Shown here in pieces: positions 3,001 through 64,000 of a stretch of 64,000 bases of DNA (within the stretch, counting starts at the first letter, position 1; each line of letters begins with the position of its first letter). A program made the position numbers and the translations under genes. Origin of the DNA: an uncultured Planctomycetales bacterium (GTDB taxonomy: Bacteria; Omnitrophota; Gorgyraeia; Zapsychrales; Fredricksoniimonadaceae). The notes below the pieces were generated by a model. It did not search any database. It was not told where the DNA came from and saw only the letters and a list, made by a program, of their open reading frames with translations. The stretch covers positions 375-64,374 of the forward strand of contig CAZACW010000007.1 in NCBI GenBank assembly GCA_964483785.1. The letters are read 5' to 3'.

Positions 3001-6000
3001 TATCAATATTGCCTTGAGATTGCTCTATTTGAAGGGTCGGGGTCGAGGTTAACCTGCCCTTCATCTGCGCCAAGGCCTTTTCCAAGTCTATCTTTAAACC
3101 CCTGGACAACAAAATCTCATCCTGCACTGCGGCCAATTCAATCAAGAACCTGTTGGTTTCATAACTTTGCTTGAGCAAGGCTGTGACCCAATCATAGTAT
3201 TTCACCTTGGTGGTGGTGGCATTGCTGTCGACCTTTTGGTCAACTTCACCATCCAATGCGCTGATCAAATTCCCTGTGGCCTGCACAGCGGCAGGGATGC
3301 TGGAACCGAGACTGCTTCCTCTGGTCACAGCCAGGTTAAAACCGCCATAACTGCCACTGATCCCGTAATTAAATTTACCATTAGAACTTATGCCGCCAAA
3401 AAGACTGACGGTCACGGCCGCCGGCAGGCCTTCCGAAGCAGCAGCCTTAAACATATCCACTTCTGTCCTGCCGCCGTTTAGCCGATAGGCAAGCACCGCA
3501 TCCGTCGCTGCTTCAGGAGAGAGCCGAAATCCTTGGAAAGAATTAGGGGCCCGAAGTGTAATGCGGATCGGCGGATTTTGTAAAATTGGAAAGGCCTGGT
3601 TGGCTGGCTGAGCCGTCGGGCTGCCAGCTGGCGACGGCAGGGTTGCTGCAGCCAGGGTTGCCGCTCGGGCCCCGCCTCCTGGGGGCCTTCCTCCGGCTCT
3701 TCTTGGCGGTGTAAGGGGTGGAGCCGGGGGTGGCGGAGGCGCTGCGTTATCTAGGTAAGGAACAGCTCTTTGAGCAATATGTTTGCGTTGGGATGGCGGC
3801 ACATACCCGGGTTGGGATTTAATGGCCCTCTGGACTTCAGGGGTTAAAAGAAACACACCAAACCCCCAATCCTTGCGCAGAATATGCTGAGGGTCATAGA
3901 CCATGACAACCAAGGATTGTTCGCTGGACATAACCGTCTTGGAATGCTGGGCAGGCCTGTGATCAATCACCTCCCCCAACAACGGGACCCCATCCAAGGT
4001 TTTGACCACCACCAGATCGCCGTTTTCAATGTTTCTGCGGATATCGGCAAAAATGTGGTATTTATCATCAATACCGACATCATTGGTCCCTAATTCAACG
4101 ACATCCGGCGCATAGGTGAAAAGAATGCCCCCCATTTGGATATTGTCTGACTCATCTTCCCCCGTTGAAAGGACGCGCAAATCTTCAGGGGCAAAGGTAT
4201 CCGCGGAACGGATCAATTCTTCCAGCATTTCCTTTTGCGCTAAAAATTCTCTTTCCCGGCTGTCTAATTCCAGCATTTCCGGGACCTCGGAATAGACAAT
4301 GCTGCCTTGCGGGGCCATCACAGCCTTTCTTTGCCTGACATCGATCAAGGCAGCCTTTACGGCAGCCAATTGGTCTTCGTAGGGCTTGGTCTCAACATGG
4401 GACATCCTCTGCCCGGCTTTGACAAAATCGCCTTGCTTGACAAAGTAGGTCACCTTGCCCGGAACCATCGCTGTAATGGGAAACTTAAACGTTCCAAGGA
4501 CCAGGCCCGTTATGCGCGGGATCCCGTCAATCCCTGAAAAATTCAACGCATCCCGGCGGTCCGGCGGGCGGACTTCCATAGACAGTCCCACTGGATCACC
4601 CAGCCTGATCGGCGAACGCTCAGGAAGCGTGATATGAAGACGAAGGAAATTTTTTCGATGTTCCAGGTCTCCGACCGTTTGTTCACGCAGGATAGGGTCA
4701 AAATAACTTTTAACATCGACCTGGTTTTGCCGGTTTTGATCATCCAGGGTCAAATTCAGATTACCGAAATACGTGATGCCCCGAGGTATTTCCAATTCAA
4801 CGCTAAACCGATCACTGGTGGGATGATAGCGGACAACGTGCCTTTCAGCATTGTGGTCTGTGTCTGACCTTTGCAAATCCTTGTCCGTGATATAGACCCC
4901 ATCATTAAGTCCGCCCCAGGATTCAATGTCCAAATCATACGGGGCCCTGACCACCCCTAACTCGGCTTCGATCTTTTTTTCAGCCAGTTCGCGGGACAAT
5001 TTTTGAAAATTCTCCCTGTATTGGGTCAATTTTTCCGCGGATAGGCTTTGGTTTCTAAAATCCACCTCCGCCTTTCTCCAGGCCTGCCTGGCCTCTTCGG
5101 TCCGGCCTTCCAGGATTTTGATTTGACGCCTCACCTCAAAATTATTGATCCTGAAAATAACTGAATTCTTTGCGTAGTGCATGATTTCAGGATGCAAATC
5201 ATAGACCTGGCCAGTCAGTCTGGGTAAAATTTGCAAAGTTAATTGAGTCAAGGTCCGGTGATCGGGGATATCAATATGTTGAGAACCCGCTTCAGGAGGA
5301 CCTCCAGCAACCAAGGTCACCGATGATCCTTCGTTGGGAATGGTCCTGCCGAATACGGCGGGTTGTAAAGCTTGGGCGTTGCCATCTCTGCGCTGGGTTA
5401 ACCATGGCGCTGCAGGCCGTCCGGGTTCCATCCCCATAGGAGGAATAACAATGGCGGCTCGGGCAGATCCTACTAAGCTGGGACCATCGCCGTTAGGCGG
5501 AGGCGGTTCTGGCATAGGTCTTGGTTCTTCAGGTGCTGGTATAAATTGTACATTGGGTGCATCGCCTGCAACGTTCAAGGACCCTGGACCTGGATTATCT
5601 CCCCTGGGTGAGGCTACAGGGGTGGGGGCATTTCTTGGTTTGTCTGTTGGTGTTGTTTGTGTAGTGCGTAGATCGCCTTGATCAGTCCTTGGCTCAATAG
5701 GTGCAGGTGGAGGCGGCGGTGGCGGGGCCGCCACTGTGGCAGTCCTTGCCCTATTCCTTTGATCTGCGAGCCGCTGTTGCCGCTCAGCCTGGGCCTTTTT
5801 TCTTTGATCAGCGAGCTGCCGTTGTCGCTCAGCCTGGGCCTTTCTGGTTTCTTCCGCTTTCCTCAGTCGTTCAGCTCTAGCGGCTGCTGCTTGAGCAATT
5901 TCTGCATCCTGCTTTGCCTTCCTTGCGATCTCTGCTTCCCTGGCAATTCTCTGTCGTTCGAGGGCTTGCGCACGCTGATCTCTCAAGGCATCAGCAGCCA

Positions 6001-7993
6001 ACTGGGCCCTCCTTGTTCTCTCTAACCGGGCATCGTCAGCGGCTTTGTCTGCCGCTCGTTGCGCGGTCAATCTTGCTTCTCTCATAATTTGAGCATGCTG
6101 GAGCATGGCTGTTGTGCGCACAGCTTCAAACGCATCAGCCCTTGCCTGGGCTGCAGCTGTATCAGCAGCTATTTGTGGCGCAGGTAGAGCAGCTGGGGCC
6201 GCCGGCGCAGCAGGCAAATCGGCAACTGGAGGGGCCTGTGACGCGGGTGGCGGAGGAGGCACAGGGACAGGCTCAGGCGGTGGCGGAACTGGTCCTCTGG
6301 CTATTGGTGGAGATCCACCTGGCACAACTACTTGACGGGGTGGCTCCTCTCGAGGAGGAGGAGCCGCGGCCAGTGGCGACCGAAGTACTGCCTCCCCTAC
6401 CAAAAATGCGATCGCTTTTTGATCTGATACAAGCGCGGTAATATTCATACGCCTATTTTCCAAAATAGGCGTATTACGAGTAACATTAAGTTGGGCTAAA
6501 TAACTGGGAAGCTTTTGATACAATTCTTGCCTGCGATTAACATTAGATAGCTCCGGGTTCTGTGCATTCATTATGTCCAGAACGATTTGACTCAAGGTGC
6601 TGCCTTGTCTAGGTGTGGCAAATACTTGGCCGCCAGTGGCGCTATAGTGTGTAATTGTATGTTGAGGGACTGCTTGAGCAAAGGTAGTTCCATGCGCTAC
6701 TGCGATTAAAGGTATGGCCAAGGCAACGGCCACGGCAAATTTGCCGGACAAGGATTTAAGAAGTGCGGGAGATAAAGGCAATTGGGCCGCGTCCGGCCGC
6801 AGGACCGGATTATTCATCAGCTGGGCCATGTCTCCCCCGATGGGCAAAAGCTCGACCTTGGCCACCCCGTAATCATGCGCTGCGGACAATTGGGCCGCGT
6901 CCAATTTGCCCCTGATGGCATCGAAGCTCGGCACCTGCAGGGTCTTCATGGCCAGGTCCGTTTTGCCGAAATTCAAACCACCGGAAAAATATTTCCGGGG
7001 CACCACCTGCTGGGTCAAGGGGTCCACGTCCTCGCGGATATAATTGTACGCGCCTACCTTATAAATACGCAGGTACTGCTTGTAAATGGCGTCCTTGGCG
7101 CCCTTGTCCACGTCGTCGATGCCGGCGATCTTTCTCTTATCTACATAAAAATTATTTAAAACGTTTCTTTTTAATGCGCGCTTAAACCAGGCCGCTAATA
7201 TGAGAGAATGGAAAACCTGGCGCACCTTGGCAAAGTTCTTGCCCTCATTCACTTCCTTTTCCAATTGCGGAAGGATCAAGTCCCGGGTTATGCCGGCGCT
7301 GATTTGATGGGCAATGCTTGCCGCCTCACCTTTTGGGGCCGTATGGTTTTTCGTGGCCAGATAATCTTCTTCCAGCATCACCTTTAAATGGGTCTCGCCG
7401 ATCAAGGCGGAATTGCCCATGTCATAAACAATGGCCTTGTCCGGCACAATCCAGACCTTGTTGTAGGTATTCACCGGCAGGTTGGTCGTGCCGAATTTGG
7501 CATAGGCCCTTTTGTAGACCTGGTCCCAGAATTTTTTACCCAATTCCGATTCAGGATAGGTCAGGGACGAGGCCAGTTGCTTTAAAAACTTGTCCTGGCG
7601 CAGTAAATCGTTGCCGGCATCGGTGAGCGCAAGCTCATCCGGGATGATGCGCCCGGATTCATACGGGGAAAGATTGACCCAGAGGTCTTCTTCGGGGATG
7701 GTGAGGCAGGTCAGAAAATACTTGATGAGGATGGAGGTCTCTTTCTGGTCAATGGCAAGGTGGCTGCCGGAATCGACCACAAAGTCAAACTCGAAAGGCT
7801 TGGCCGGGTACACGCGCATGCCGCGCAAAACAGGCAGGGAATAGGGCGTGGAAAGGTCTACGAAGTAATGGCCTGCGGGGAAAAACGGGGTGGGCTGGGC
7901 TTGGACGCTTTCCAGGCTGGTTTGAACCAAAAGAAAAGAAAGCAAACAGCAAATGGTCCGAAAAAACCTGGATTTTTTTATAACTATAGCCAT
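1..7993 (-). CDS. Giant secreted/envelope mosaic protein, 5' partial in window (ORF continues beyond position 1; at least ~2660 codons). Signal peptide; N-domain paralogous to ORF 31545..34103; TolA-like charged coiled coil; Pro-rich linkers; HlyD-like and TolC-like segments; C-terminal TM helices
   Basis: Not in the ORF track because there is no stop within the window. ATG at 7993-7991 follows an in-frame stop at 8003-8005. A manual scan of every + strand TTA/CTA/TCA at codon phase (pos mod 3 = 2) across 2..7990 found none, while the other two minus frames have stops in nearly every 60-nt line. The translation is protein-like throughout (MAIVIKKSRFFRTICCLLSFLLVQTSLESVQA...; ...KFGTTNLPVNTYNKVWIVPDKAIVY... 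closely matches the 852-aa ORF N-terminus). Confidence 0.75.
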   Translation of the reverse strand, partial: MAIVIKKSRFFRTICCLLSFLLVQTSLESVQAQPTPFFPAGHYFVDLSTPYSLPVLRGMRVYPAKPFEFDFVVDSGSHLAIDQKETSILIKYFLTCLTIPEEDLWVNLSPYESGRIIPDELALTDAGNDLLRQDKFLKQLASSLTYPESELGKKFWDQVYKRAYAKFGTTNLPVNTYNKVWIVPDKAIVYDMGNSALIGETHLKVMLEEDYLATKNHTAPKGEAASIAHQISAGITRDLILPQLEKEVNEGKNFAKVRQVFHSLILAAWFKRALKRNVLNNFYVDKRKIAGIDDVDKGAKDAIYKQYLRIYKVGAYNYIREDVDPLTQQVVPRKYFSGGLNFGKTDLAMKTLQVPSFDAIRGKLDAAQLSAAHDYGVAKVELLPIGGDMAQLMNNPVLRPDAAQLPLSPALLKSLSGKFAVAVALAIPLIAVAHGTTFAQAVPQHTITHYSATGGQVFATPRQGSTLSQIVLDIMNAQNPELSNVNRRQELYQKLPSYLAQLNVTRNTPILENRRMNITALVSDQKAIAFLVGEAVLRSPLAAAPPPREEPPRQVVVPGGSPPIARGPVPPPPEPVPVPPPPPASQAPPVADLPAAPAAPAALPAPQIAADTAAAQARADAFEAVRTTAMLQHAQIMREARLTAQRAADKAADDARLERTRRAQLAADALRDQRAQALERQRIAREAEIARKAKQDAEIAQAAAARAERLRKAEETRKAQAERQRQLADQRKKAQAERQQRLADQRNRARTATVAAPPPPPPPAPIEPRTDQGDLRTTQTTPTDKPRNAPTPVASPRGDNPGPGSLNVAGDAPNVQFIPAPEEPRPMPEPPPPNGDGPSLVGSARAAIVIPPMGMEPGRPAAPWLTQRRDGNAQALQPAVFGRTIPNEGSSVTLVAGGPPEAGSQHIDIPDHRTLTQLTLQILPRLTGQVYDLHPEIMHYAKNSVIFRINNFEVRRQIKILEGRTEEARQAWRKAEVDFRNQSLSAEKLTQYRENFQKLSRELAEKKIEAELGVVRAPYDLDIESWGGLNDGVYITDKDLQRSDTDHNAERHVVRYHPTSDRFSVELEIPRGITYFGNLNLTLDDQNRQNQVDVKSYFDPILREQTVGDLEHRKNFLRLHITLPERSPIRLGDPVGLSMEVRPPDRRDALNFSGIDGIPRITGLVLGTFKFPITAMVPGKVTYFVKQGDFVKAGQRMSHVETKPYEDQLAAVKAALIDVRQRKAVMAPQGSIVYSEVPEMLELDSREREFLAQKEMLEELIRSADTFAPEDLRVLSTGEDESDNIQMGGILFTYAPDVVELGTNDVGIDDKYHIFADIRRNIENGDLVVVKTLDGVPLLGEVIDHRPAQHSKTVMSSEQSLVVMVYDPQHILRKDWGFGVFLLTPEVQRAIKSQPGYVPPSQRKHIAQRAVPYLDNAAPPPPPAPPLTPPRRAGGRPPGGGARAATLAAATLPSPAGSPTAQPANQAFPILQNPPIRITLRAPNSFQGFRLSPEAATDAVLAYRLNGGRTEVDMFKAAASEGLPAAVTVSLFGGISSNGKFNYGISGSYGGFNLAVTRGSSLGSSIPAAVQATGNLISALDGEVDQKVDSNATTTKVKYYDWVTALLKQSYETNRFLIELAAVQDEILLSRGLKIDLEKALAQMKGRLTSTPTLQIEQSQGNIDNVDGEIARLETLAQKLMRPINDLTGKGWEHLENPLLSTVNLSQRMVPIAGNDKQAFIAKILSAQSLNTRLQSVLTAQRGVERDIRIQGLEFYPKLNGTGLLGTADLSNAQYNIIPGATSISSVIHKIFGVLSGELPIYDGTARIKRKVLALDAQASLDDIERTRIAIAQEAGDTIDEYNSLVRDQIPKAEQELAHAQNALILAGHRDVAADLASYRLKITEKAKKVAELRAKAREDLVYLYLLDPPTYPVRNANMLQERTDKAQLSHLRKRILSMAGVIFISLSILPSTFWGQGVPNSAQQQWATQQREGQQNMLENYRRQAIEGETLQARIAALDSIYAEFSNDPRFISALKYITFHSSKVDVVQEIFRRMAWGDKPNLHFLIEINEEAKLELVNDKDRLLDLTALVYLYIEDILMDHPDIFKGKSILSFVPNANSPYPMVTPEAVRRVIRTETAWRLGTIHMDRFLQNSLPPPFSPDRSPQQPFMSPILWAQDLNALNTYVFTLQNDQKPVPQGQRIENLMNTERSQVERSIELDLVPEIWHKGPFNPNLLWIFPFEERNRERLTGWGEDAKGFLETSPNWEAPEFKDPTLLGRSLPRTSNFIARVPPGTAIQGEPIDDLSRLPSMEGASIIYYEMNEAPEKAGYIARSGPSEVVRLLKYLKYVPGNTLEENMKDPAFRLKLLSAYRYADDDFQDLIESKLDIYDLWNDAHRNDAAWKRVLRESLTMVYNRHAQNPKENPDQLKKVAPLMDVVLETMSASELSRYKDPRPDGDLRVRAQMERIGYRWAAQEIFASQEFRQSPITAREGRYHDEELDLPQIMDIVNTTIDPLMMQRTVAEIRQNVPREGWQEMVTRMFNQVVFDWEIPHSYAEMIERFSSEMRHFAYDIDIGYQGLYFPRIPLFALGTYLGIGIFTFVILFSRIMWFYNRFLVPLGGHRRLLRSFRQEYRTDEQSIEESADQAMVSITRNNTYVGVYQPLHNWNEKQLWLRRQGRLTPD
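5758..5846 (-). repeat. Two tandem ~45-bp direct repeats inside the giant ORF, encoding a repeated charged heptad-like segment (KAQAERQ[RQ]QLADQR)
   Basis: tttgatctgcgagccgctgttgccgctcagcctgggcctttttt followed by tttgatcagcgagctgccgttgtcgctcagcctgggcctttct, read directly from the sequence. Confidence 0.7.
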
Positions 7994-8150
7994 GGCTGGA
8001 ACTTATTGCGTTTGTTTGGGTTTGATCCTTAGTATAGAGAATGGATGTTAAAACCGTGTTAGGGAGCAGTTAATCTTATATAAATACAATGGCTCTATAT
8101 AATATCGCGTAACCCGTTGGCTTGGAATAAGTTATCGGAATTTGACTGGG

Positions 8151-8179
8151 ACCATCACAACCCCCGGGGTTGTGATGGT
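8151..8179. repeat. PR1 palindrome copy 1 (ACCATCACAACCCCCGGGGTTGTGATGGT), in the intergenic gap between the apbC stop and the giant ORF start
   Basis: Perfect 29-nt palindrome seen in the sequence; it is a member of a 7-copy family. Confidence 0.9.
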
Positions 8180-8181: not shown

Positions 8182-9222
8182 TTAAGACTTGAACAAGCTG
8201 TAAGGGTAGATGCCTGAAGCATGGCCATCACTCCAGGTAATGCCTACGGCATAATTGCCTAAAGGAAGGATTTCCGTGGGGTTGATGTCCGGAGGGATTT
8301 TCTTGGGGTCCAGCAGGCGCTGGCCCGTGGTTTCCGAAATGCACAAGGCGCAGGCGCAGTTGGCCCGCAGATCAAAGGCTTTGGCAGACAATTCGCGGCC
8401 GTCATCAAAAACCAGCACCACCCTGCCATCGCGATAGCCGGCATCCTTAAGAAAGGATTGATGTATTTGGGCCTGTTTGATGGCTTGTAAAAGCCCCTCT
8501 GCCGCTTTTTGAATATAAGGATTTGAAGGAGGCTGTTCCCCGCTTTTTAAGGGGGCTGTTCCCTTTAACTGAGACAAGTCTTCCTGGATTGGGATCTCCG
8601 CCAGGGTCTTGACGCCGAAGCGCGCGGACAAGGCCCCGGTCTTGGGCTGGCCGAAAACATAATATTTTTGACCGGTGTCCGGCGCTTGAAAATACGCCAT
8701 GTTTTCAATGACCCCTAAAATCGGGACATTGACCTTTTCAAACATCAGGATGCCGCGGGCCGTGTCTGCCAGGGAAAGGCCGTGGGGTGTGGTCACGATC
8801 ACGGCGCCGGCGAGTTTCACCGACTGCGTGATGGTCAACTGCACATCGCCGGTGCCGGGCGGCATGTCGATGATCAAAAAATCCGCCCCGCCCCAGCCGG
8901 TCGGAAACAAAAGCTGCGGCAAATACCGCGGGACAATGGGCCCGGGAATCACCGCCGGAGCATCGCCCAAAAGATAGCCGAAGGACATCAATTTCAGCCC
9001 CTGGCTTTCCAGGGGCGTCAACATTTTGAATTCATTGGCCTGCACGCGGGCCTGGGGCATGGGAAAAAGCAGGGGCATGGAAGGCCCGTAAATGTCCGCG
9101 TCAAGCAAACCGGTCTTGAATTTGCGGCGCACCAGCTCCAGGCCCAGGGCCGCGGCAACAGTGGATTTGCCCACCCCGCCCTTGCAGGAAGAGACCGCGA
9201 TCACGGATTTGATATTTTTCAT
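8182..9222 (-). CDS. apbC: Mrp/ApbC/NBP35 Fe-S cluster carrier ATPase with a C-terminal DUF971-like extension
   Basis: P-loop [10 protein letters not shown] and the ParA/Mrp family fold; the C-terminal ~90 aa ([36 protein letters not shown]...) resemble DUF971. Confidence 0.8.
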
Positions 9223-11369: not shown

Positions 11370-13028
11370 ATGAATGCCTTTCTTGATTATATCGCCACCA
11401 AACGATGGCCAGGTATTGTCCTTATTATCCTCTTCGGCGTCATCGCTTATCACAATTGCCTGCCCAATGAGATGTTCTGGGACGATGACGATTTCATCAA
11501 CAATAACCGCTATATCCGCGATTTTCATGATTGGCCATTATGGTTTAGCCAGAACCTGGTGGCCGGCAGTTTTTTAGTCAGCAATTATTGGCGGCCGCTG
11601 TTATTGGCCATTTTTTCCGTGGAATGGCATCTTTGGCAGCGCTGGGTGTACGGCTGGCACGCGGTCACAGTCAGCTTCCATATCCTGGCAGCCCTGGCCC
11701 TTTATGCTTTGATCCACCGGCTTTTTAGCAGGCGCCTGCTGGCCCTTTTATGCGCCCTGATTTTTGTAGTGCACCCCGTACACAACGAAGCGGTCTGCTA
11801 TGTCAACAGCATGGGTGATTCCCTGGCGAGCTTCCTTCTATTATCCAGCCTCGTCTGCTTTACCCGTTTCCGGCAATCCCAACAGCCGGCCTGGGCTTCC
11901 CGCGCATACTGGGCGGCCCTGCTTTTGTACCCTTTAAGTATGCTTTCCAAGGAAACCGGCTTTGTGCTGGCCGGCCTGCTTCCCCTGACCGATTTTCTCC
12001 TGCTTTCCAAGGACAAAAATTTTTGGCGCCGCGCCGGGCAAACCGCGGCCGCGGTCTGGCCCTTTCTTGTCCTTGCGGTCATTTACATTATCCTGCGCGG
12101 CACGGTGCTGAATTTTAACAACAGCTTTAATTTCTACAACGCCCACAATGATTTCACCAATCACCCCAGCATCCGGGTGATGACCTTTTTCAAGGCCATG
12201 ACGCAGTATGCGGGCTTTTTGTTTGTCCCCTATCAATTGCGGGTGGAACGCAATATGCCCTGGGCCCAATCCCTGTTGGAATGGGATGTGCTTTGGGGCG
12301 GCTTGATCGTCGGGGCCATGCTTTGGGCCGCATTCAAATATTGGAGGACCAAGCCCTGGCTTGCCTTTGGCGTAGGATGGTTTTTTATCGCTATTGCCCC
12401 GGCTTCGAACGTTTTGGTGCCCATCAATGCCGTGATCTACGAGCATTTTCTGTACATGCCCATGATCGGCGTCACCCTGATCGCGGTTTATGCTGGACTG
12501 GACTGGGCCCAAAAACGCCAACGCACTGCGACGCTGGTCAAGGTCCTGGCCGTGATCCTGGTCCTTTTTTGCGCCATCAATATCCACCGCAATTTAGACT
12601 GGCGCACCTCCATCGGCTTTTACGAACAGCTGATCACCTATCAGCCCAATGATTACAGGGTCATCAATAATTTAGGGATGGAATACGCGAATAAAGGCAT
12701 TCATGACAAGGCCCTGGCCACGTATTTGAAGGCCATTGCCCTGGACCCTCAAAACCCCGTGGCCTATCATAATATCGCCGGCACCTACCGCGACACCGGC
12801 CACATTGACCTGGCCCTGCAGAATTTTCAAAAGGCCATTGAGCTTAATCACAACTTTATTTTTTCCTACCGTTCCCTGGCGGATATTTACTGGAGGCTGG
12901 GGCAATGGGAGAACTGCCGGCGCTGTTTGCTGGCGATTTTGAGTTTCGACCCCACGGATGCCAATGTCCGTCAGGTCCTGCAGGAAGTGGAACAGAGATT
13001 AAAACCATCACAACCCCCGGGGTTGTGA
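11370..13028 (+). CDS. Polytopic membrane protein with C-terminal TPR repeats (GT39/PMT-like or TMTC-like topology)
   Basis: Many N-terminal hydrophobic segments and a C-terminal TPR consensus (YNLGMEYANKG..A...Y.KAIALDP..). The last 7 codons and the stop (PSQPPGL*) are encoded by PR1 copy 2. Confidence 0.6.
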   Translation: MNAFLDYIATKRWPGIVLIILFGVIAYHNCLPNEMFWDDDDFINNNRYIRDFHDWPLWFSQNLVAGSFLVSNYWRPLLLAIFSVEWHLWQRWVYGWHAVTVSFHILAALALYALIHRLFSRRLLALLCALIFVVHPVHNEAVCYVNSMGDSLASFLLLSSLVCFTRFRQSQQPAWASRAYWAALLLYPLSMLSKETGFVLAGLLPLTDFLLLSKDKNFWRRAGQTAAAVWPFLVLAVIYIILRGTVLNFNNSFNFYNAHNDFTNHPSIRVMTFFKAMTQYAGFLFVPYQLRVERNMPWAQSLLEWDVLWGGLIVGAMLWAAFKYWRTKPWLAFGVGWFFIAIAPASNVLVPINAVIYEHFLYMPMIGVTLIAVYAGLDWAQKRQRTATLVKVLAVILVLFCAINIHRNLDWRTSIGFYEQLITYQPNDYRVINNLGMEYANKGIHDKALATYLKAIALDPQNPVAYHNIAGTYRDTGHIDLALQNFQKAIELNHNFIFSYRSLADIYWRLGQWENCRRCLLAILSFDPTDANVRQVLQEVEQRLKPSQPPGL

Positions 13029-13032
13029 TGGT
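13004..13032. repeat. PR1 palindrome copy 2, overlapping the 3' end and TGA stop of the TPR membrane protein gene
   Basis: Perfect 29-nt palindrome. Confidence 0.9.
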
Positions 13033-13812
13033 CTAAATTAAGATTTGTTTAAAAAATTTCTGCATTTCATCCCACGAGGCCTTGTCCGCGTCTGCGTTAT
13101 ACAAGGCGCCGGGCGGGTCAATGCCCTTATTGTCCGGGTTGGTAAAGCCGTGCATGGCGCCGGGGTATTTGATCAGGCGGTAATCGACCTTGGCTGTCTT
13201 CATCTCTTCTTCAAAGGCCGCCACTTCCTCAGGCTTGACATAGGGGTCTGCATCACCGTGCAGGACCAGGACCTTGGTCTTGATATTTTTAGCATCCTGC
13301 GGGGTCGGGGTGCTTAAGCCCCCGTGAAAACTGACAATGCCCTTAATATCCGCGCCGCTGCGGGCCAATTCCAAAACAGCGGTACCGCCGAAACAATAGC
13401 CGATGGCCGCCAGCTTGGATGGGTCCACGTTGGCTTGTGATTTGAGGGCATCCAACCCGGCATTGACGCGCGCCCTGAAAAGCGCCCGGTCGCCCTTGTA
13501 TTTCCCCGCGGCGGCACCCGCCTCTGCCGTGGTTTGCGGTTGGGCCCCTTTGCCGTAAATGTCCGCGGCAAAGGCCACGTAGCCCAGTTGTGCCAGCATA
13601 TCTGCCCGCCGTTTGGCATAGGCATTAAGCCCTTTCCATTCATGCACCACCAGAACTCCTGGGCGCTGGCCGCTCAAAGCATTATCATAAGCCAGATAGC
13701 CTTCTAAAACCGTATCGCCCTGCTTATAGTCCACAAGCCGGGTCGTTAAGGCGGCCCAGGATGTTGCGGCCGCGCCTGTCAAAGCCATTAAAAAAACCAA
13801 AAGTAAACGCAT
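13033..13812 (-). CDS. Dienelactone hydrolase-family alpha/beta hydrolase, secreted
   Basis: Signal peptide plus the DLH-family pattern (HEWKG..., GYCFGG nucleophile elbow, ...HGGLS..., HGF). Confidence 0.7.
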   Translation of the reverse strand: MRLLLVFLMALTGAAATSWAALTTRLVDYKQGDTVLEGYLAYDNALSGQRPGVLVVHEWKGLNAYAKRRADMLAQLGYVAFAADIYGKGAQPQTTAEAGAAAGKYKGDRALFRARVNAGLDALKSQANVDPSKLAAIGYCFGGTAVLELARSGADIKGIVSFHGGLSTPTPQDAKNIKTKVLVLHGDADPYVKPEEVAAFEEEMKTAKVDYRLIKYPGAMHGFTNPDNKGIDPPGALYNADADKASWDEMQKFFKQILI

Positions 13813-13839: not shown

Positions 13840-13868
13840 ACCATCACAACCCCGGGGGTTGTGATGGT
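13840..13868. repeat. PR1 palindrome copy 3 (centre CCCCGGGGG variant)
   Basis: Perfect palindrome lying between two tandem minus-strand genes. Confidence 0.9.
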
Positions 13869-13891: not shown

Positions 13892-14572
13892 TTAATACGA
13901 CGTTGTCGAACCGACGTTATTTAATACTTTTTCCCCCATCAAAATGGGGTCCACCGGCTTGGCGTCGATTCTAAGCCCGCCGTCGTGCTCGATATGGATG
14001 GTGTAAAGATACCCTGGAATAAACACAACCCCCGGCGCCTCGATCTGCACGCTTTTGACACCCGCCTTCCTGGCCCTGACCTCATCAAAGGCAAAGCGCC
14101 AGAAATCATGCCAGAACCTGTTTTCAAAACCGCTGGTCTTGCCTGGCACCTTATAGCCGCCCGGCACCTCATCCACCTGGGTGATGGGAAATTCCTGGGT
14201 CTTGCTGCCGTCGAGCACAAAGGCCTTCCAGAACAGGTACACGCTTTTGCCTTTGAACAGATCGCCGGCAGCCACGAATTTGTCCTCGAAGCGCACCACC
14301 AGGGACTGAAACTGGATCAATTTTCCGCTGAAGGTGAAATATTTAGGGGCCAGGGGCTGATTGTCCGTGTCATATTCGACAAACTTGATGGTGGTTTTGT
14401 CGCGGCGGCTCGCCTCATCAAAATTCACGTCGGTGACTAAGACCTGCGCGGCCCGCGATTCCGCCTGCAGGCGCTGCAGCATCTCTTTGTACACATGCTC
14501 GCGCCTAAGATGCCAGACCAGCCAAAAACCGGCCAGGACCAGGAAAAAAACGATGATGAGCGTCCTGTTCAT
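13892..14572 (-). CDS. Hypothetical membrane-anchored protein
   Basis: The ORF has an N-terminal TM helix; no recognisable family. Confidence 0.4.
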   Translation of the reverse strand: MNRTLIIVFFLVLAGFWLVWHLRREHVYKEMLQRLQAESRAAQVLVTDVNFDEASRRDKTTIKFVEYDTDNQPLAPKYFTFSGKLIQFQSLVVRFEDKFVAAGDLFKGKSVYLFWKAFVLDGSKTQEFPITQVDEVPGGYKVPGKTSGFENRFWHDFWRFAFDEVRARKAGVKSVQIEAPGVVFIPGYLYTIHIEHDGGLRIDAKPVDPILMGEKVLNNVGSTTSY

Positions 14573-31316: not shown

Positions 31317-31544
31317 AGGAGAAAGCCCCGCCTCTGCCGTTGAATCTGGTGTAAATGAGAACCATTATTCTCAAGTGGGTGCCAGTGTGAGGCGGCCTAA
31401 GGCGCGCCAGCAGATGACCGGCTCCCGGTGTATTGTTTTGTGGTTCAATACATCCGAGATCCTATCGAACAGCGCAGGGTTTAAGGCTATTATATCACTA
31501 TTGAATTTTTATGCACGCAAAAGGTGCCCAAGGGGCATTCTCTT

Positions 31545-34103
31545 TTAAACCGGGCCTTGATGCTTAACGCCCAGAAAATTTTGAAGGTCTCCTAACGGCC
31601 GTATATTGATGATATCAAAATCAACGCCCTGAGATGACTGCCAAAGGGCCAGTTGGGCAGGGTCCATCTTTACCTGGATGGCCGCAGAGGCCTTGTCAAA
31701 GGCCATGACTTTGACGGGCCTCAAATCAATCCCGCCGTCGCGGCCGGTCATGGCGGCATTGACCATTTTCAAATAACCCGCCTCCACCCCTTCCATCACC
31801 TGGCGCTGTTTGGGGGCTTCGTTGTGCTCAATGCCTGAAAGGATGGTGATATTGACATCTTTTTTTAATTCTTCGAACTGCTTGCGCAGGGCGGGTGAAC
31901 TGTATTTCCCGGGGTTGTGATGGTCGTTTTCCACCAAATACAAATGATACCCGCCTAAGGCGGCCCTGAACCTGGCATTGTCCGCGACGATCATTTTTTG
32001 GATCTTGCCGTGGGGGTTCTGAGAATACGCCACGCGTTTATGCAAAAAAATGGTGCTGGGCACGACCACGTTGCGGACAAAATAGTACCTAAGCTGGTCC
32101 GCTTTCGCGGAGCCGCCCAACGGGGGCGCGATCTCATCGTAAAATAGGCCTTGGTATTTTCTGGTCTGGTGCGTCTGTAAAAAAGCAAGGCGAAACACCG
32201 TCGTCCCGTTGGAAAATGCAATGACATGATACGGCGCTTTAAGGCCATGGGCGGTCAAAAGCCCGTGCCTGGATAGAAAAAGCGCCAATTGTTCATCAAA
32301 TCTTTGGGAGGTGGTGAGGATATCGGCGAATTCATTGTATTCAAAAACGCCGATATTGTATTTGTCCTTCATGGCTTCAAACATGCCTCCAAAACTGCTG
32401 GTGGAACCTTCCAAAAGGCCCCTCACAAAAATTTTCAAAGGCTTGGACGGGTCATAAGCATCATTCAACAAATGGATGGTTTGGACATCCCGTAAAGCTT
32501 GGCGCACGGCATCGACGCGCTCGTCATGGGATTTGTGGGTCCCTGAGATTAAAACAGAGGACATCAGGCTGATGATCGGATGGATCACATACCCATGGGT
32601 GACCAAATCCTCGGCGATCTTTTTGCGCATGGCCTTAAACCATCCTGTATTGAAGCCCATGTATTTTCTTTGATATTGGTCTTCCCTGCCCAAGCTGATG
32701 GCTGTCCCCAAGGCGTTCATGAGCGGCTTCCATGTTTTGCGTTCTAAGGAAGGGACAAAGCCGATGCTTGGATCAAGGTCATTCCTGCGGACAAAGGCCT
32801 TCCATGCGTCTTTGACGCCGCCATATTGCGGCATAATGTGGTATTCGATCATACCCTTGGTCTCTTCTGTCAGCCATCGCACCGTGGCCCTGATTTTTTT
32901 TCGCTCGCCCTTGGTTTGGGCCTCGGCTCTTCTTAACTCTGCGGTGATCAGCTGGTCGTGCACATAGTCATCCGGACGAAAGTCTCCGGGTTTAAAATCC
33001 TCAACGGTGCGCATGGCCGCATCCACTTTAAGAGCAAACCCTCCCGAGAAATACTTGCGGGGCACAGCTTGCAGGGTGACTGGATCCGGCTCTTCCTTGA
33101 TATAGTTGTAAACACCTTTCTTGAAAGCCTGCAGGTACCGATGGTAAATAACCATCACAACCCCGGGGGTTGTGATGGTTATTCCTTGGATTTTGTTCTG
33201 GTTGGCATATACGGCAGTCAGTATGCTGTCCTTGATCTTCTTCTTGTACCAGGTGGCTAAAATCAGGCTGTTGTACACCTGTCTTAGCTTAGCAAAATTG
33301 GCTCCGGTATTGACTTCTTTCGTCAATTCAGGAATGACAATCTCACGGATCATTTGCGAGCCCAGCATATGAATATTGGAACCCCTCAAAATGGGGACAG
33401 TCCCTTGGGAAACAATGTTAACGGGACAGTCCCCATTTTGAAGGACCCCAACATCCCCGTGCTTGGCTTGCGATAAATAATCCTCTTCCAGCATAACCTT
33501 TAATGTTGACTCAACAACATACGCCGTTCCTGCTTTCGCGTTTTCATACACTACAGCCTTATCAGGCACAATCCAGACCTTGTTGAAGGTATTGACCGCT
33601 ATATCGGTTGTACCGAATCTCTTGGCCGCTTCAGCGTAGACCTTCTTCCAAAACTTCTTCCCTGTCTCCCCTTCCGGGTAAATCAAGCTGGCCGTGATTT
33701 GCTTGAGCATATAATCTTCAATAAGCAAATCGCGGCCCATCTCGGTCCGGCCGAAGGCCGGCGGGATGATCCTGTTTTGCTCATAAGGGCTTAGATTGAC
33801 CCAAAGGTCATCTTCAGGGATGGTCAGGCTTGCCAGGAAATATTTAATGAGCTTGGCAATGTCCTTGATTTCAGCGGGATTCCGGCCTGCGTTATTTAAA
33901 ATGAATTCCAAACGCAAGGGGTTGTCCGGATGGATCTTGATGCCTTTAAAGATGGGCGGATCAAATTCCGGGCTTAAGGCGATCCTTCGGCCGGGTTCTG
34001 GCAGCTGCAGGCAATTTTGCGCAAAAAGGGCCGGGTCCGAGGGACAAAGGAAGGAAATGGTTATGTTCAAAAAGATAAAAACTTTAATGAATTTATCATT
34101 CAT
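31545..34103 (-). CDS. Large secreted hypothetical protein (852 aa) whose N-terminal ~320 aa are paralogous to the giant ORF N-domain; contains an in-frame PR1 palindrome
   Basis: Signal-peptide-like N-terminus. Shared blocks VNLSPYE..RIIP, GKKFW, KFGTT..VNT.NKVWIVPDKA.VY and KVMLEEDYL align with the translation of 7993..7000. PR1 copy 4 encodes ITTPGVVMV in frame. Confidence 0.6.
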   Translation of the reverse strand: MNDKFIKVFIFLNITISFLCPSDPALFAQNCLQLPEPGRRIALSPEFDPPIFKGIKIHPDNPLRLEFILNNAGRNPAEIKDIAKLIKYFLASLTIPEDDLWVNLSPYEQNRIIPPAFGRTEMGRDLLIEDYMLKQITASLIYPEGETGKKFWKKVYAEAAKRFGTTDIAVNTFNKVWIVPDKAVVYENAKAGTAYVVESTLKVMLEEDYLSQAKHGDVGVLQNGDCPVNIVSQGTVPILRGSNIHMLGSQMIREIVIPELTKEVNTGANFAKLRQVYNSLILATWYKKKIKDSILTAVYANQNKIQGITITTPGVVMVIYHRYLQAFKKGVYNYIKEEPDPVTLQAVPRKYFSGGFALKVDAAMRTVEDFKPGDFRPDDYVHDQLITAELRRAEAQTKGERKKIRATVRWLTEETKGMIEYHIMPQYGGVKDAWKAFVRRNDLDPSIGFVPSLERKTWKPLMNALGTAISLGREDQYQRKYMGFNTGWFKAMRKKIAEDLVTHGYVIHPIISLMSSVLISGTHKSHDERVDAVRQALRDVQTIHLLNDAYDPSKPLKIFVRGLLEGSTSSFGGMFEAMKDKYNIGVFEYNEFADILTTSQRFDEQLALFLSRHGLLTAHGLKAPYHVIAFSNGTTVFRLAFLQTHQTRKYQGLFYDEIAPPLGGSAKADQLRYYFVRNVVVPSTIFLHKRVAYSQNPHGKIQKMIVADNARFRAALGGYHLYLVENDHHNPGKYSSPALRKQFEELKKDVNITILSGIEHNEAPKQRQVMEGVEAGYLKMVNAAMTGRDGGIDLRPVKVMAFDKASAAIQVKMDPAQLALWQSSQGVDFDIINIRPLGDLQNFLGVKHQGPV
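31908..31924. repeat. PR1 half-site (CCCGGGGTTGTGATGGT) inside the 852-aa ORF
   Basis: One-arm match; on the minus strand it encodes DHHNPG. Confidence 0.5.
33152..33180. repeat. PR1 palindrome copy 4, inside the coding sequence (in frame)
   Basis: Perfect palindrome; it replaces about 9 codons (DVDKGAKDA in the giant ORF paralog) with TITTPGVVMV. Confidence 0.9.
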
Positions 34104-44267: not shown

Positions 44268-44296
44268 ACCATCACAACCCCGGGGGTTGTGATGGT
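44268..44296. repeat. PR1 palindrome copy 5, between the parA stop and the parB start
   Basis: Perfect palindrome. Confidence 0.9.
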
Positions 44297-45105: not shown

Positions 45106-45134
45106 CCCTCCACAACCCCCGGGGTTGTGATGGT
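45106..45134. repeat. PR1 palindrome copy 6 (left arm degenerate, 3 mismatches), between jag and parA
   Basis: CCCTCCACAACCCCCGGGGTTGTGATGGTT. Confidence 0.75.
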
Positions 45135-62926: not shown

Positions 62927-62934
62927 TCCCTTCC

Positions 62935-62965
62935 AACCATCACAACCCCCGGGGTTGTGATGGTT
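62935..62965. repeat. PR1 palindrome copy 7, immediately after the secretin stop
   Basis: AACCATCACAACCCCCGGGGTTGTGATGGTT. Confidence 0.9.
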
Positions 62966-63017
62966 TCCTTTAAAATCGTCAGTGACAAAGCCGGGATTCA
63001 TGGTAAAATAGAGAGCC

Positions 63018-64000
63018 ATGTCCTCCAAGGTCATCACCATTTTCAGCAATAAAGGCGGTGTTGGGAAAACCTTTGTCGCCGTCAATATCGCCTGCGCCCT
63101 GGCCTTGAAAGGCCGGCGGGTGTTGATCGTGGATTTGAACCTGCAGGCCAGCCAGGACATGGCGCGCATGCTCAATCTGCCGCCCGCCTATTGCCTCATC
63201 GACATCCTGGCGGACATGGACCCTCCGGATGCCATCCGCAAGCACGTGATCAACCACAGCTGCGGCCTGCATTTTCTGCCCGGCATCAAGTCCCCGCGCC
63301 AAATCGGCCATATCACGGCCGACAATCTGCGCCTCTTTTTCAAGAAAGCTTCCAACCATTACGAATACATCATCGTCGACGGAGGCAGCACCTTCAGCGA
63401 GATTTTGATCAGCATCATGGACTCCTCCAACCTGATTTTTCTAGTTGGCACGCCGGACATTTTGGCCGTGTACCAGGTCAAGACCAGCCTGGAGATCATC
63501 CAGAGCCTGCATTTTCCTTTAAAAATGGTGCGGCTGATCCTTAACCGCGCCGAAAGCCGCGGCGGGGTGGCCTGGCAGGAGGTGAAAAACGCCCTGGCCT
63601 GCGAGGTCTTTTCCCTGATCCCCTCCGATGGCAAGACCGTGGGCATGGCCTTAAACCGCGGGGTGCCCTGCGTCATCGACAGCGCCAAGACCAAGGTCGC
63701 GGAAACTTTTTTCGAGATCGCCGACCATTTGGGCGACGAAAGCCTGTATATGCAGGCCAGCGACGTGATCAAGGTCCGCAGTTCGGACCACGCCTCCAAG
63801 AAATCCGACGAATTCTGGGAAAAATTCGGCATCACGCCCAACATGTCCGAGGGGGTGATGGATTTCAAGAAGGAAGAGGACGAGGTGATTAAGCTTAAAA
63901 GGGCCGTGCACAACCTGCTGGTTGAGCGCATGAACCTGCAAAAAATGTCCCCGGAGGTCTTGAACGACCCTTCGCAGGCCGCCAATCTGCGCAAGGCCGC
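63018..64000 (+). CDS. CpaE/TadZ-like ParA/MinD-family ATPase, continuing without a stop into a CpaF/TadA-like N-terminal region; 3' partial (runs off the window)
   Basis: Not in the ORF track (no in-window stop). Hand translation from the ATG at 63018: MSSKVITIFSNKGGVGKTFVAVNIACALA...; later ...EVIKLKRAVHNLLVERMNL..., which is typical of the CpaF N-terminus. Confidence 0.65.
   Translation, partial: MSSKVITIFSNKGGVGKTFVAVNIACALALKGRRVLIVDLNLQASQDMARMLNLPPAYCLIDILADMDPPDAIRKHVINHSCGLHFLPGIKSPRQIGHITADNLRLFFKKASNHYEYIIVDGGSTFSEILISIMDSSNLIFLVGTPDILAVYQVKTSLEIIQSLHFPLKMVRLILNRAESRGGVAWQEVKNALACEVFSLIPSDGKTVGMALNRGVPCVIDSAKTKVAETFFEIADHLGDESLYMQASDVIKVRSSDHASKKSDEFWEKFGITPNMSEGVMDFKKEEDEVIKLKRAVHNLLVERMNLQKMSPEVLNDPSQAANLRKA

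What the first reader, a model, noticed from the sequence alone, without database searches (positions are those of the whole stretch)
31545..34103. 852-aa ORF: paralog of the giant ORF N-domain with an in-frame palindrome insertion
The first ~320 residues align block-by-block with the N-terminal domain of the giant ORF (VNLSPYE, GKKFW, KFGTT..VNT.NKVWIVPDKA.VY, KVMLEEDYL, YNYI.E..DP.T.Q.VPRKYFSGG). At 33152..33180, PR1 sits in frame and encodes TITTPGVVMV where the paralog has DVDKGAKDA, so the mobile palindrome was domesticated into coding sequence without breaking the frame. A PR1 half-site at 31908 also encodes DHHNPG. The antisense ORFs 32958..33260 and 61775..63175 show HHNPGGCDG only because they read the same palindrome. 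Like the giant ORF, this gene follows a PR1 copy and carries a signal peptide. The shared N-domain could be a targeting or anchoring module.
Basis: partly seen in the sequence, partly recalled or inferred. Interest (0 to 1): 0.6.

Follow-up and report, generated by a model that had tools for sequence, protein, structure and literature searches.

The report
Exported hydrolase carrying in-frame palindromes
This is an intact gene for an exported enzyme from an Omnitrophota bacterium; its front end is a conserved, so far undescribed module shared with thousands of proteins of that phylum, and two surface loops of that module have absorbed short palindromic repeat DNA without breaking the reading frame.

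Summary
The core observation holds. ORF 31545..34103 (-) is 852 aa, and residues 41-368 match the N-terminus of the giant ORF (window 2..8002, -) at 46% identity, E=1e-90. PR1 is real: a 29-nt palindrome with 7 copies in 64 kb, none expected by chance. One copy lies in frame and encodes TITTPGVVMV.

Three points need correcting:
- PR1 is not a net insertion. It replaces exactly the 10 codons of a loop that is 10 residues long across the family.
- No PR1 copy lies upstream of this gene.
- The lone PR1 arm (DHHNPG) overlies the conserved catalytic-Asp motif D-x-H-N-P of the C-terminal domain.

New findings:
- The N-domain is an Omnitrophota-wide module with more than 4,260 protein hits and several copies per genome. 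It has no Pfam, NCBIfam or PDB match.
- It is usually paired with a conserved C-terminal "GGIDL...PVIINIQP" module, and the two flank varied enzyme cargo.
- The cargo here is an alpha/beta-hydrolase with triad Ser631-Asp727-His760.
- A second hairpin adds about 19 residues to the other variable loop.
- In other Omnitrophota the same two loops carry other dispersed hairpin repeats.

The palindromes look like tolerated passengers in permissive loops, as with Rickettsia palindromic elements. Domestication is not shown.

The parts
31545..34103 (-). 852-aa ORF (stop codon at 31545-31547). Layout: signal peptide, N-module, linker, alpha/beta-hydrolase, C-terminal GGIDL module.
34017..34103 (-). Residues 1-29, MNDKFIKVFIFLNITISFLCPSDPALFAQ: probable Sec signal peptide (inferred)
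   Evidence: Hydrophobic stretch, predicted helix 3-19, family consensus ...AQAQ; no predictor run
33036..34004 (-). Conserved N-module (residues 34-356, LPEPG...PRKYFSGG), paralogous to the giant ORF and to more than 4,260 Omnitrophota proteins
   Evidence: no Pfam/NCBIfam/PDB match
33347..33478 (.). Second, single-copy imperfect palindrome (core arms 33388-33404 / 33423-33439). It encodes hypervariable loop A (residues ~213-243) and adds ~19 residues relative to the giant ORF.
   Evidence: DNA fold -34.9 kcal/mol, z=-6.7; loop disordered in the model
33147..33183 (.). PR1 copy inside the ORF: perfect 37-nt palindrome with core 33151-33179. Codons 33150-33179 = T309-V318 (TITTPGVVMV), replacing the 10-residue loop B.
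33012..33023 (-). D361-A-A-M364: the D-x-A-M motif that follows the N-module in 108 of 120 family members
31746..32477 (-). Alpha/beta-hydrolase domain (residues ~543-786). Ser631 = 32211-32213, Asp727 = 31923-31925, His760 = 31824-31826.
31908..31924 (-). Lone PR1 arm ACCATCACAACCCC(GGG), encoding (D)HHNPG over the catalytic-Asp motif D-x-H-N-P
31548..31736 (-). C-terminal module (residues 790-852: GGIDL...DPAQL...DIINIRPL...FLG), shared by 82 of 120 N-module proteins and by some proteins lacking the N-module
6935..7861 (-). Paralogous N-module of the giant ORF (window 2..8002, -)
8151..8179 (.). PR1 copy, 2 nt past the stop of gene 8182..9222 (-) and upstream of the giant ORF
13004..13032 (.). 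PR1 copy between convergent genes. It supplies the last 7 codons and the stop (PSQPPGL*) of the TPR gene 11370..13028.
13840..13868 (.). PR1 copy, 23 nt past the stop of ORF 13892..14572 (-)
44268..44296 (.). PR1 copy between parA-like and parB genes, 12 nt past the parA-like stop
45106..45134 (.). PR1 copy with a degenerate left arm, between the yidC and parA-like genes
62936..62964 (.). PR1 copy, 10 nt past the stop of the secretin gene 61202..62926

Best explanation
The ORF is a functional gene of an Omnitrophota bacterium that encodes an exported, modular enzyme.

Layout, from the N-terminus:
1. A Sec-type signal peptide (inferred).
2. A ~320-residue N-module that is a phylum-wide, many-copies-per-genome 'head'. 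It always sits at the N-terminus, ahead of unrelated cargo domains.
3. A D-x-A-M linker motif and a helical region.
4. An alpha/beta-hydrolase with Ser631-Asp727-His760 (shown by fold and conserved residues; activity and substrate unknown).
5. A ~60-residue C-terminal GGIDL...IINI.P module that most family members also carry.

Because the N-module stays 60-70% identical across paralogs with different cargo, it most likely binds one common partner. That would make it a handling, targeting or anchoring module rather than a ligand sensor (inference).

PR1 is a lineage-specific, REP-like perfect palindrome. Five of its six extragenic copies lie 0-23 nt beyond a stop codon, so it probably acts as a 3'-end hairpin (inference). 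One copy occupies exactly the ten codons of the loop between two helices of the N-module (loop B), in one of PR1's two stop-free frames. A second, unrelated hairpin adds ~19 residues to the disordered loop A. These two loops are the family's permissive sites, and in other Omnitrophota they hold other dispersed hairpin repeats. The palindromes are therefore best read as tolerated, selfish or neutral passengers, analogous to Rickettsia palindromic elements. Nothing marks them as domesticated parts.
For: Paralogy and family:
- BLASTP gives 46% identity over 330 residues, E=1e-90.
- More than 4,260 hits, all with the W[VI]NLSP motif near residue 100, and cargo domains including GGDEF, methyltransferases, HATPase_c, NUDIX, guanylate kinase, CheR, HAD and GT1.
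- More than 588 loci in Omnitrophota MAGs, with up to 9 from one assembly among the best 80.
- 82 of 120 proteins end with the C-module, and 108 of 120 have D-x-A-[MQ] just after the N-module.

Gene integrity: the query shares every invariant column of the alignments it is part of, including PRKYFSGG and the Ser, Asp and His columns.

Hydrolase: the model has pLDDT 76.5 and pTM 0.72. Foldseek finds 519 PDB hits at E<=1e-3, all esterases, thioesterases or lipases among the 50 listed.

PR1:
- 7 copies against 0 expected.
- Positions relative to stop codons.
- Reading frames NHHNPGGCDG, TITTPGVVMV and PSQPPGL*.
- Loop B has a modal length of 10 residues, the same as the PR1 peptide.
- PR1 residues fall between helix 302-307 and helix 313-328. 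Loop A (217-240) has pLDDT below 50.

Hot-spot generalisation, in 50 homologous genes:
- Perfect inverted repeats occur at 14.3 per kb in loop A and 17.6 per kb in loop B, against 2.1 per kb in the rest of the module.
- 12 of 19 long B loops carry such a repeat, against 2 of 31 short ones.
- The loop hairpins recur across loci. For example, GTCATTCCCGCGAA gives 22 hits in 10 loci.

Precedent: in-frame palindromic elements in Rickettsia genes (PMC10969869).
Against: - A simple insertion cannot give a length-neutral swap, and there is no microhomology between PR1 and the family's loop codons (8.4 of 30 nt, which is chance level). How PR1 got there is unexplained.
- No transposase, no target-site duplication and no PR1 copy outside this 64-kb window were found. 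Mobility is inferred only from copy number and sequence identity.
- No close ortholog exists; the best full-length relative is 38% identical and not syntenic. The event cannot be dated, and selection on the PR1 codons cannot be measured.
- The N-module model is only moderate (pLDDT 66, pTM 0.57), so placing the loops on the surface is provisional.
- The signal peptide was not tested with a predictor.
- The oxyanion motif is RG rather than the family's HG.
Confidence: 0.7

Rival explanations
1. PR1 spreads, at least inside genes, by templated replacement (gene-conversion-like copying from the many extragenic copies) rather than by cut-and-paste insertion. On this view loop B was overwritten codon for codon. 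The lone arm arose when a PR1 arm converted a site that already resembled it, namely the D-x-H-N-P motif.
For: - Both intragenic PR1 sequences are length-neutral.
- The lone arm overlies a motif conserved in PR1-free homologs: DPHNP, DIHNP, DRHNP. Only the variable second residue and the synonymous positions need to change.
- My estimate of a chance 14-nt match, given the motif, is about 8e-4.
- No target-site duplication appears at any copy.
- All arms are identical.
Against: - Loop B shows no microhomology that could seed conversion.
- The window holds one lone arm against 13 arms paired in palindromes.
- No comparative data are available.
Confidence: 0.3
2. The PR1 copy has been domesticated. 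Either the peptide TITTPGVVMV or the 17-18-bp mRNA hairpin now serves the gene, for example as a translational pause between folding units or as an internal terminator yielding an N-module-only product.
For: - The hairpin is strong in RNA (-28.3 kcal/mol, z=-4.8).
- It is flagged as terminator-like, but on the plus strand, opposite to the gene.
- The frame and the loop length are preserved.
Against: - The copy is a perfect consensus palindrome with no sign of protein-level divergence.
- The same loop in other paralogs holds unrelated repeats or the plain NIDDPQEKEK loop, so no specific sequence is required there.
- No T-run follows the hairpin on the coding strand.
Confidence: 0.1
3. PR1 arms are uptake-signal-like or protein-binding words, maintained by a molecular drive as with DUS/USS in Neisseria and Haemophilus. 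They would occur as inverted pairs behind genes and as single words inside genes.
For: - Inverted pairs lie directly after stop codons.
- One single word inside a gene causes no length change.
Against: - There is only one lone arm in 64 kb against 7 palindromes, and near-matches are at chance level. DUS/USS systems have many single copies.
- No competence evidence was sought.
Confidence: 0.05
4. The feature is an artefact: a pseudogene, or a metagenomic misassembly joined at a repeat.
For: - The window comes from a metagenome-type contig (64,925 nt).
- Repeats can cause chimeric joins.
Against: - Both flanks of PR1 continue the same N-module alignment in frame (...NKIQGI | PR1 | IYHRYLQAFKKGVYNYI...).
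- The 852 codons are uninterrupted.
- All invariant family residues and the catalytic triad are kept.
Confidence: 0.03

Closest known systems
Rickettsia palindromic elements (RPEs; Ogata et al. 2000, 2002, as reviewed in PMC10969869)
   Same: - Repeated palindromic DNA sits in frame inside intact protein-coding genes.
- It lands in positions compatible with the fold and adds or alters a peptide segment.
- The same repeats also occur between genes.
   Different: - RPEs are ~100-150 bp and add residues. PR1 is 29-37 nt and here is length-neutral.
- The phylum differs.
- Here the insertions concentrate in two loops of one multi-copy module rather than in unrelated housekeeping genes.
REP / REPIN elements of proteobacteria (mobilised by RAYT Y1 transposases)
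   Same: - Short, GC-rich palindromes that are highly repeated.
- They lie mostly just downstream of stop codons.
- Copies within a genome are identical.
   Different: - No RAYT was found in the window.
- REPs are by definition extragenic and usually imperfect.
- PR1 is a perfect palindrome, and one copy is coding.
Omnitrophota giant proteins ('Archaeovorins', West-Roberts et al. 2023, bioRxiv 10.1101/2023.11.21.568195; 2026 preprint 10.64898/2026.06.07.730766)
   Same: - Same phylum.
- Same repertoire of cargo domains: HATPase_c, methyltransferase, NUDIX, GGDEF, HAD.
- Signal peptides are present.
- The N-module also heads a protein of more than 2,667 residues in this window.
- A Rotamase_2-RcpC-secretin locus of the reported kind is present at 59349-62926.
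   Different: - This protein has only 852 residues and a single cargo domain.
- Those papers describe the N-terminal regions as lacking identifiable domains, and do not describe this N-module, the D-x-A-M motif or the GGIDL C-module.
Modular secreted proteins with a constant sorting or trafficking module and variable cargo (polymorphic toxins, T9SS C-terminal-domain substrates, SLH-anchored enzymes)
   Same: Constant N- and C-terminal modules bracket highly variable enzymatic cargo, with many paralogs per genome.
   Different: - No sequence or fold similarity to any of these.
- No dedicated partner gene is conserved nearby.
- The analogy is architectural only.
Alpha/beta-hydrolase fold esterases, thioesterases and lipases (e.g. 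SulM thioesterase 8w2d, monoacylglycerol lipase 7l4t, CesB 4ccy)
   Same: The fold and the Ser-Asp-His order of catalytic residues are the same.
   Different: - Only 10-16% identity.
- No Pfam family reaches threshold.
- The nucleophile elbow is A-F-S-N-G rather than G-x-S-x-G.
- The oxyanion motif is RG rather than HG.
- The family is small: 44 hits among 1.84 billion representative proteins.

Membership tests
Alpha/beta-hydrolase superfamily | Alpha/beta-hydrolase fold | tested here: met
   Model pLDDT 76.5, pTM 0.72. Foldseek against the PDB gives 519 hits at E<=1e-3, best 2.7e-7, all hydrolases of this fold among the 50 listed.
Alpha/beta-hydrolase superfamily | Catalytic triad in the order nucleophile-acid-His on the canonical loops | tested here: met
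   S631, D727 and H760 are invariant in the 4-sequence alignment A1. In the 27 homologs shown from A4, Ser and His are kept in all rows aligned at those blocks (26 and 27), and Asp in 26 of 27 (P0121 has E).
Alpha/beta-hydrolase superfamily | Nucleophile elbow G-x-S-x-G and oxyanion HG motif | tested here: inconclusive
   The elbow is F-S-N-G (x-S-x-G only), as in most homologs. The query has VRG where most homologs have HG.
Alpha/beta-hydrolase superfamily | Hydrolytic activity on an ester, thioester or amide substrate | not testable with these tools
   Needs biochemistry.
REP / REPIN elements | Short repeated palindrome, many near-identical copies | tested here: met
   7 copies in 64 kb, 13 identical arms, 0 expected by chance.
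REP / REPIN elements | Extragenic location, typically at the 3' ends of genes | tested here: met
   6 of 7 copies are intergenic, and 5 of those lie 0-23 nt from a stop codon. The seventh is the coding copy.
REP / REPIN elements | Associated RAYT (IS200/IS605-like Y1) transposase in the genome | tested here: inconclusive
   No transposase domain was found among the 42 proteins of the window scanned against Pfam. The rest of the genome was not available.
Rickettsia palindromic elements (RPE) | In-frame presence inside an intact protein-coding gene | tested here: met
Rickettsia palindromic elements (RPE) | ~100-150-bp element that adds a peptide segment; sequence families specific to Rickettsia | tested here: not met
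   PR1 is 29-37 nt and length-neutral. The loop A hairpin does add ~19 residues, but it is single-copy in the window. PR1 is therefore an analogue, not a member.
MITE | Terminal inverted repeats flanked by target-site duplications | tested here: not met
   The flanks of the 7 copies share no direct repeat.
Sec-dependent signal peptide | n-h-c regions with a small-x-small cleavage site | tested here: inconclusive
   By inspection only: K4/K7, hydrophobic stretch 8-19, ALFA/Q; family consensus AQA/Q. No predictor was available.
Omnitrophota N-module family (undescribed; defined here) | N-terminal position, with motifs DLWVNLSPYE, NKVWIVP.KA.VYE, LKVMLE.DY and PRKYFSGG | tested here: met
   All four motifs are present in the query and the giant ORF (the second as NKVWIVPDKA.VY; the giant has D where the query has the final E). 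58 invariant columns in the 116-sequence alignment.
Archaeovorin-type giant proteins (West-Roberts et al. 2023) | Giant length, with HEAT repeats and many enzyme domains | tested here: not met
   852 residues with one cargo domain. Whether the published giant proteins carry this N-module was not tested.

The most novel reading that the evidence does not exclude
The N-module, the D-x-A-M motifs and the GGIDL C-module together mark an Omnitrophota-specific export or delivery system. In this system a signal-peptide-bearing constant head and tail carry interchangeable cargo out of the cell and possibly into prey or host cells. The cargo runs from this single hydrolase up to multi-enzyme giant proteins, and includes nucleotide-dependent 'cytoplasmic' enzymes. 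The D-x-A-M sites would be where the cargo is cut free. The two loops of the head would then be free to absorb hairpin repeats because only its conserved faces contact the machinery.
Probability: 0.25. Interest if true: 0.75.

Novelty: new variant of a known kind. Interest (0 to 1): 0.5.

Why it matters
Two things make this worth noting.

First, it extends protein-coding palindromes, best known from Rickettsia, to a free-living or predatory candidate phylum. It adds two twists: the repeats land repeatedly in the same two loops of one multi-copy module, and here a 30-nt palindrome overwrote a loop codon for codon. That length-neutral swap, together with the lone arm over a catalytic motif, raises the question of how such repeats spread, by transposition or by templated conversion.

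Second, following the paralogy exposed a very large protein family that is not in Pfam, NCBIfam or the PDB. It has a constant head and a constant tail around variable enzymes, and the head also begins a giant ORF. If head and tail are sorting or delivery signals, they give a direct handle on how Omnitrophota export their unusual enzyme-laden and giant proteins, which the current literature leaves open.

Tried and rejected
- The search for homologous proteins with the C-terminal 482 residues returned nothing, not even the protein itself. I treat this as a word-index failure. The exhaustive HMMER search replaced it.
- Exact PR1 scans of genome contigs, metagenome contigs with the 27-nt and then the 21-nt core, viral contigs and the 80 fetched Omnitrophota loci all gave zero hits. 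PR1 therefore cannot be studied outside this window.
- The loop A hairpin core is likewise absent from the 80 loci and single-copy in the window.
- The look-up of encoding contigs for the protein itself found no record. The listing of cluster members gave no names.
- The closest full-length relative, P0015, is not syntenic, so no ancestral state can be read from synteny.
- The profile search of the PDB gave only low-complexity hits such as huntingtin and Mediator 15. I rejected these as spurious.
- A search for conserved neighbours of N-module genes in 80 loci found none.
- Literature searches for the GGIDL motif and for a described Omnitrophota N- or C-terminal module found nothing relevant.
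- I considered microhomology between PR1 and ancestral loop codons and rejected it, because identity is at chance level.
- I considered a lipoprotein signal and rejected it, because there is no lipobox before Cys20 (inspection).
Full report
**1. The observation**

The ORF is as described: 31545..34103 on the minus strand, ATG start, 852 residues. The "giant ORF" does not appear in the ORF list because it runs off the window. It is the stop-free frame at 2..8002 (-), at least 2,667 codons.

BLASTP of the two proteins gives one strong segment: residues 41-368 against 44-352, 151/330 identical (46%), E=1e-90. Nothing else is significant. tblastn finds only these two N-domain copies in the window.

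**2. PR1**

The core ACCATCACAACCCC[C/G]GGGGTTGTGATGGT occurs seven times, centred at 8165, 13018, 13854, 33165, 44282, 45120 and 62950. Shuffles expect none, and 13 arms are identical.

Six copies are intergenic, and five of those lie 0-23 nt beyond a stop codon:
- the Mrp/ParA-like gene;
- the convergent TPR / dienelactone-hydrolase pair;
- ORF 13892..14572;
- the parA-like gene;
- the secretin gene.

The copy at 13004-13032 supplies the last seven codons and the stop (PSQPPGL*) of the TPR gene.

Because PR1 is a palindrome, both strands give the same three readings: NHHNPGGCDG, TITTPGVVMV and PSQPPGL*. Two of the three frames are open. The one at 61775..63175 overlaps a genuine secretin gene and has no domain hit.

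No PR1 copy lies in the 97-nt spacer upstream of the 852-residue ORF, so "this gene follows a PR1 copy" is wrong. PR1 was not found in the GTDB genome collection, JGI metagenomes, IMG/VR or 80 other Omnitrophota loci. No transposase domain was found among the 42 proteins of the window that I scanned.

**3. The in-gene PR1 copy is a swap, not an insertion**

The copy is a perfect 37-nt palindrome at 33147-33183. Its core fills codons T309-V318.

In 120 homologs the segment between the invariant G307-[V/I] and I319-Y320 is most often ten residues long, with consensus NIDDPQEKEK. That is the same length as TITTPGVVMV, and the giant ORF also has ten residues there.

Identity between PR1 and the loop codons of 27 relatives is 8.4 of 30 nt, which is chance level. 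The palindrome has therefore overwritten the loop codon for codon without microhomology. The outer four bases of each arm of the 37-mer overlap the conserved flanking codons: the last base of the G307 codon plus the I308 codon (ATA) on one side, and the last base of the V318 codon plus the I319 codon (ATT) on the other.

In the AlphaFold model of residues 1-372 (50-sequence alignment, pLDDT 66, pTM 0.57), these residues fall between helix 302-307 and helix 313-328. In mRNA the site folds into a 17-18-bp hairpin of -28.3 kcal/mol.

**4.

The only gap in the BLASTP alignment is 19 residues, at VLQNGDCPVNIVSQGTVPILRG. It coincides with a long imperfect inverted repeat: arms 33356-33404 and 33423-33471, fold 33347-33478, -34.9 kcal/mol, z=-6.7. 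The repeat is single-copy in the window.

It encodes the family's hypervariable loop A, which is disordered in the model (residues 217-240, pLDDT below 50).

**5. The two loops are family-wide hot spots**

I fetched 80 Omnitrophota loci that encode the module. In the 50 genes where both loops could be parsed:
- Perfect inverted repeats (stem at least 8, loop at most 60) occur at 14.3 per kb in loop A and 17.6 per kb in loop B, against 2.1 per kb in the rest of the module.
- 12 of 19 B loops longer than 11 residues carry one, against 2 of 31 short loops.
- The inserted peptides have the look of translated hairpin repeats: VIPAKAGIQ, SSPNVLVGDP, VIASAAKQSF.
- Their DNA recurs across loci. GTCATTCCCGCGAA gives 22 hits in 10 loci, and GTCATCCCCGAATG gives 17 hits in 11 loci, within 613 kb.

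The PR1 case is thus one instance of a general tolerance of these two loops for palindromic repeat DNA. The nearest precedent is the in-frame Rickettsia palindromic elements (PMC10969869).

**6. What the protein is**

*N-module.* It has no match in Pfam (query and 49 relatives), NCBIfam, PDB sequences, a PDB profile search, or Foldseek against PDB and viral models. It is nonetheless very widespread:
- More than 4,260 proteins among the 8,000 scored candidates.
- It is always N-terminal, with the WVNLSP motif near residue 100.
- Identity to the query is 45-71% across the aligned relatives, mostly 60-70%.
- More than 588 genomic loci, with several per MAG.
- Named sources are all Candidatus Omnitrophica/Omnitrophota. 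Some ENA bins carry a placeholder "Planctomycetales" label.

*Family architecture.* Downstream cargo domains vary widely: GGDEF, several methyltransferases, HATPase_c, NUDIX, guanylate kinase, CheR, HAD, GT1, FHA and receiver domains. Further regularities are:
- 82 of 120 proteins end with a conserved ~60-residue module, GGIDLT...IKFH.DPAML.QLQNAPGFVPVIINIQP...FLG. The query has it too, at residues 790-852.
- 108 of 120 have a D-x-A-[MQ] motif within 90 residues after PRKYFSGG, against a background of 0.27 per 90 residues.
- 63 of 106 have the same motif just before the C-module.
- Only 15 of 120 have a transmembrane-like segment after the head.
- No neighbouring gene is conserved within 4 kb on either side.

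*C-terminal half of this protein.* It is an alpha/beta-hydrolase. The model has pLDDT 76.5 and pTM 0.72. Foldseek gives 519 PDB hits at E<=1e-3, to thioesterases, esterases and lipases. S631, D727 and H760 are conserved across homologs.

This hydrolase subfamily is small: 44 hits in 1.84 billion representative proteins, the best at 29% identity. Pfam shows only sub-threshold Abhydrolase_6 and DUF676 signals in relatives.

*Gene context.* Neighbours are housekeeping genes: pheS and pheT upstream, then a 6S RNA, rarA, 5-FTHF cyclo-ligase and RNase Y downstream.

**7. The lone PR1 arm**

The exact arm at 31911-31924 (-), 17 nt with the following GGG, encodes D727-H-H-N-P-G. That is the hydrolase family's catalytic-Asp motif D-x-H-N-P, seen in PR1-free homologs as DPHNP, DIHNP and DRHNP, and there is no length difference.

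Given that motif, I estimate the chance of the 14-nt arm at about 8e-4. A causal link is therefore likely. Either PR1 arms converted an already similar site, or PR1 arose from this motif. Neither can be tested without more genomes.

**8. Interpretation**

Shown:
- the paralogy;
- PR1 as a repeat family;
- its in-frame, length-neutral presence in a loop;
- a second hairpin in the other loop;
- enrichment of hairpins in these loops across the family;
- the hydrolase fold and triad;
- the head / cargo / tail architecture.

Inferred:
- export through a signal peptide;
- a common-partner (targeting or anchoring) role for the head, argued from its high conservation across paralogs with different cargo;
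- PR1 as a 3'-end hairpin element;
- the palindromes as tolerated passengers.

Not shown: mobility, domestication, the enzyme's substrate, or how a 30-nt swap arose.

**9. What is known and what is new**

The two papers on Omnitrophota giant proteins report the same cargo repertoire and a conserved Rotamase_2 / RcpC / secretin locus. One such locus sits at 59349-62926 in this window. They state that the N-terminal regions lack identifiable domains, and they do not mention this head, the D-x-A-M motif or the GGIDL tail.

In-frame palindromic repeats are a known kind of event. Three things appear to be new:
- the concentration of repeats in two loops of one multi-copy module across a phylum;
- the length-neutral overwrite;
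- the overlap of an arm with a catalytic motif.

**10. Verdict**

I rate it a new variant of a known kind, with moderate interest (0.5). Most of the interest lies in the undescribed head-and-tail module family that the paralogy points to.

Noticed in passing
window 33347-33478: A second, single-copy imperfect palindrome (DNA fold -34.9 kcal/mol, z=-6.7) encodes the hypervariable loop A of the N-module. It accounts for the only gap (19 residues) between the two paralogs.
   Followed up: yes
window 31908-31925 (-): The lone PR1 arm encodes D727-HHNPG, which is the conserved catalytic-Asp motif D-x-H-N-P of the hydrolase family. Chance seems unlikely (about 8e-4 by my estimate). Either PR1 converted this site or PR1 arose from it.
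   Followed up: partly
window 13004-13032: This PR1 copy provides the last seven codons and the stop codon (PSQPPGL*) of the TPR gene 11370..13028. It also abuts the stop of the convergent dienelactone-hydrolase gene 13033..13812.
   Followed up: partly
window 31321-31483 (-): A 6S RNA (Rfam RF00013, 53.7 bits against a gathering score of 46.4) lies directly downstream of the 852-residue ORF. It is followed by rarA and a 5-formyl-THF cyclo-ligase gene.
   Followed up: no
window 59349-62926 (+): The gene order Rotamase_2 PPIase, RcpC, then secretin (with a TonB_C domain) matches the conserved secretion locus that West-Roberts et al. report upstream of Omnitrophota giant genes. A PR1 copy follows the secretin.
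   Followed up: no
P0002-P0120 (homologs of the N-module): Cargo domains are bracketed by D-x-A-[MQ] motifs: 108 of 120 after the head and 63 of 106 before the tail. 82 of 120 proteins end with a GGIDL...PVIINIQP...FLG module. Only 15 of 120 have a transmembrane-like segment, although much of the cargo is nucleotide-dependent and of 'cytoplasmic' type.
   Followed up: partly
P0149 (169 aa): A minimal protein made of a signal peptide, the first ~45 residues of the N-module, and then the GGIDL C-module fused directly. This hints that head and tail may interact.
   Followed up: no
L013, L019, L030, L047, L048, L073 and others (loops A/B of the N-module genes): Dispersed hairpin repeats (for example GTCATTCCCGCGAA..., translated as VIPAKAGIQ, and GTCATCCCCGAATG..., translated as SSPNVLVGDP) are inserted in frame in the same two loops in many Omnitrophota genomes.
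   Followed up: partly
window 34069-34121: A 24-nt imperfect inverted repeat (79% complementary, 5-nt spacer) spans the start codon of the 852-residue ORF. It could occlude the ribosome-binding region.
   Followed up: no
window 43325-55370: parB, parA-like, yidC, dnaA, dnaN, gyrB and gyrA lie together, so the window covers the origin-proximal region of the chromosome. A cluster of three tRNA genes lies at 40320-40600.
   Followed up: no
window 2-8002 (-), giant ORF: After its N-module the giant ORF has transmembrane-like segments at residues 410-438, 1935-1954 and 2565-2592, and a proline/alanine-rich TolA-like stretch (NCBIfam TolA, E=1e-4). Otherwise it has no Pfam domain.
   Followed up: partly
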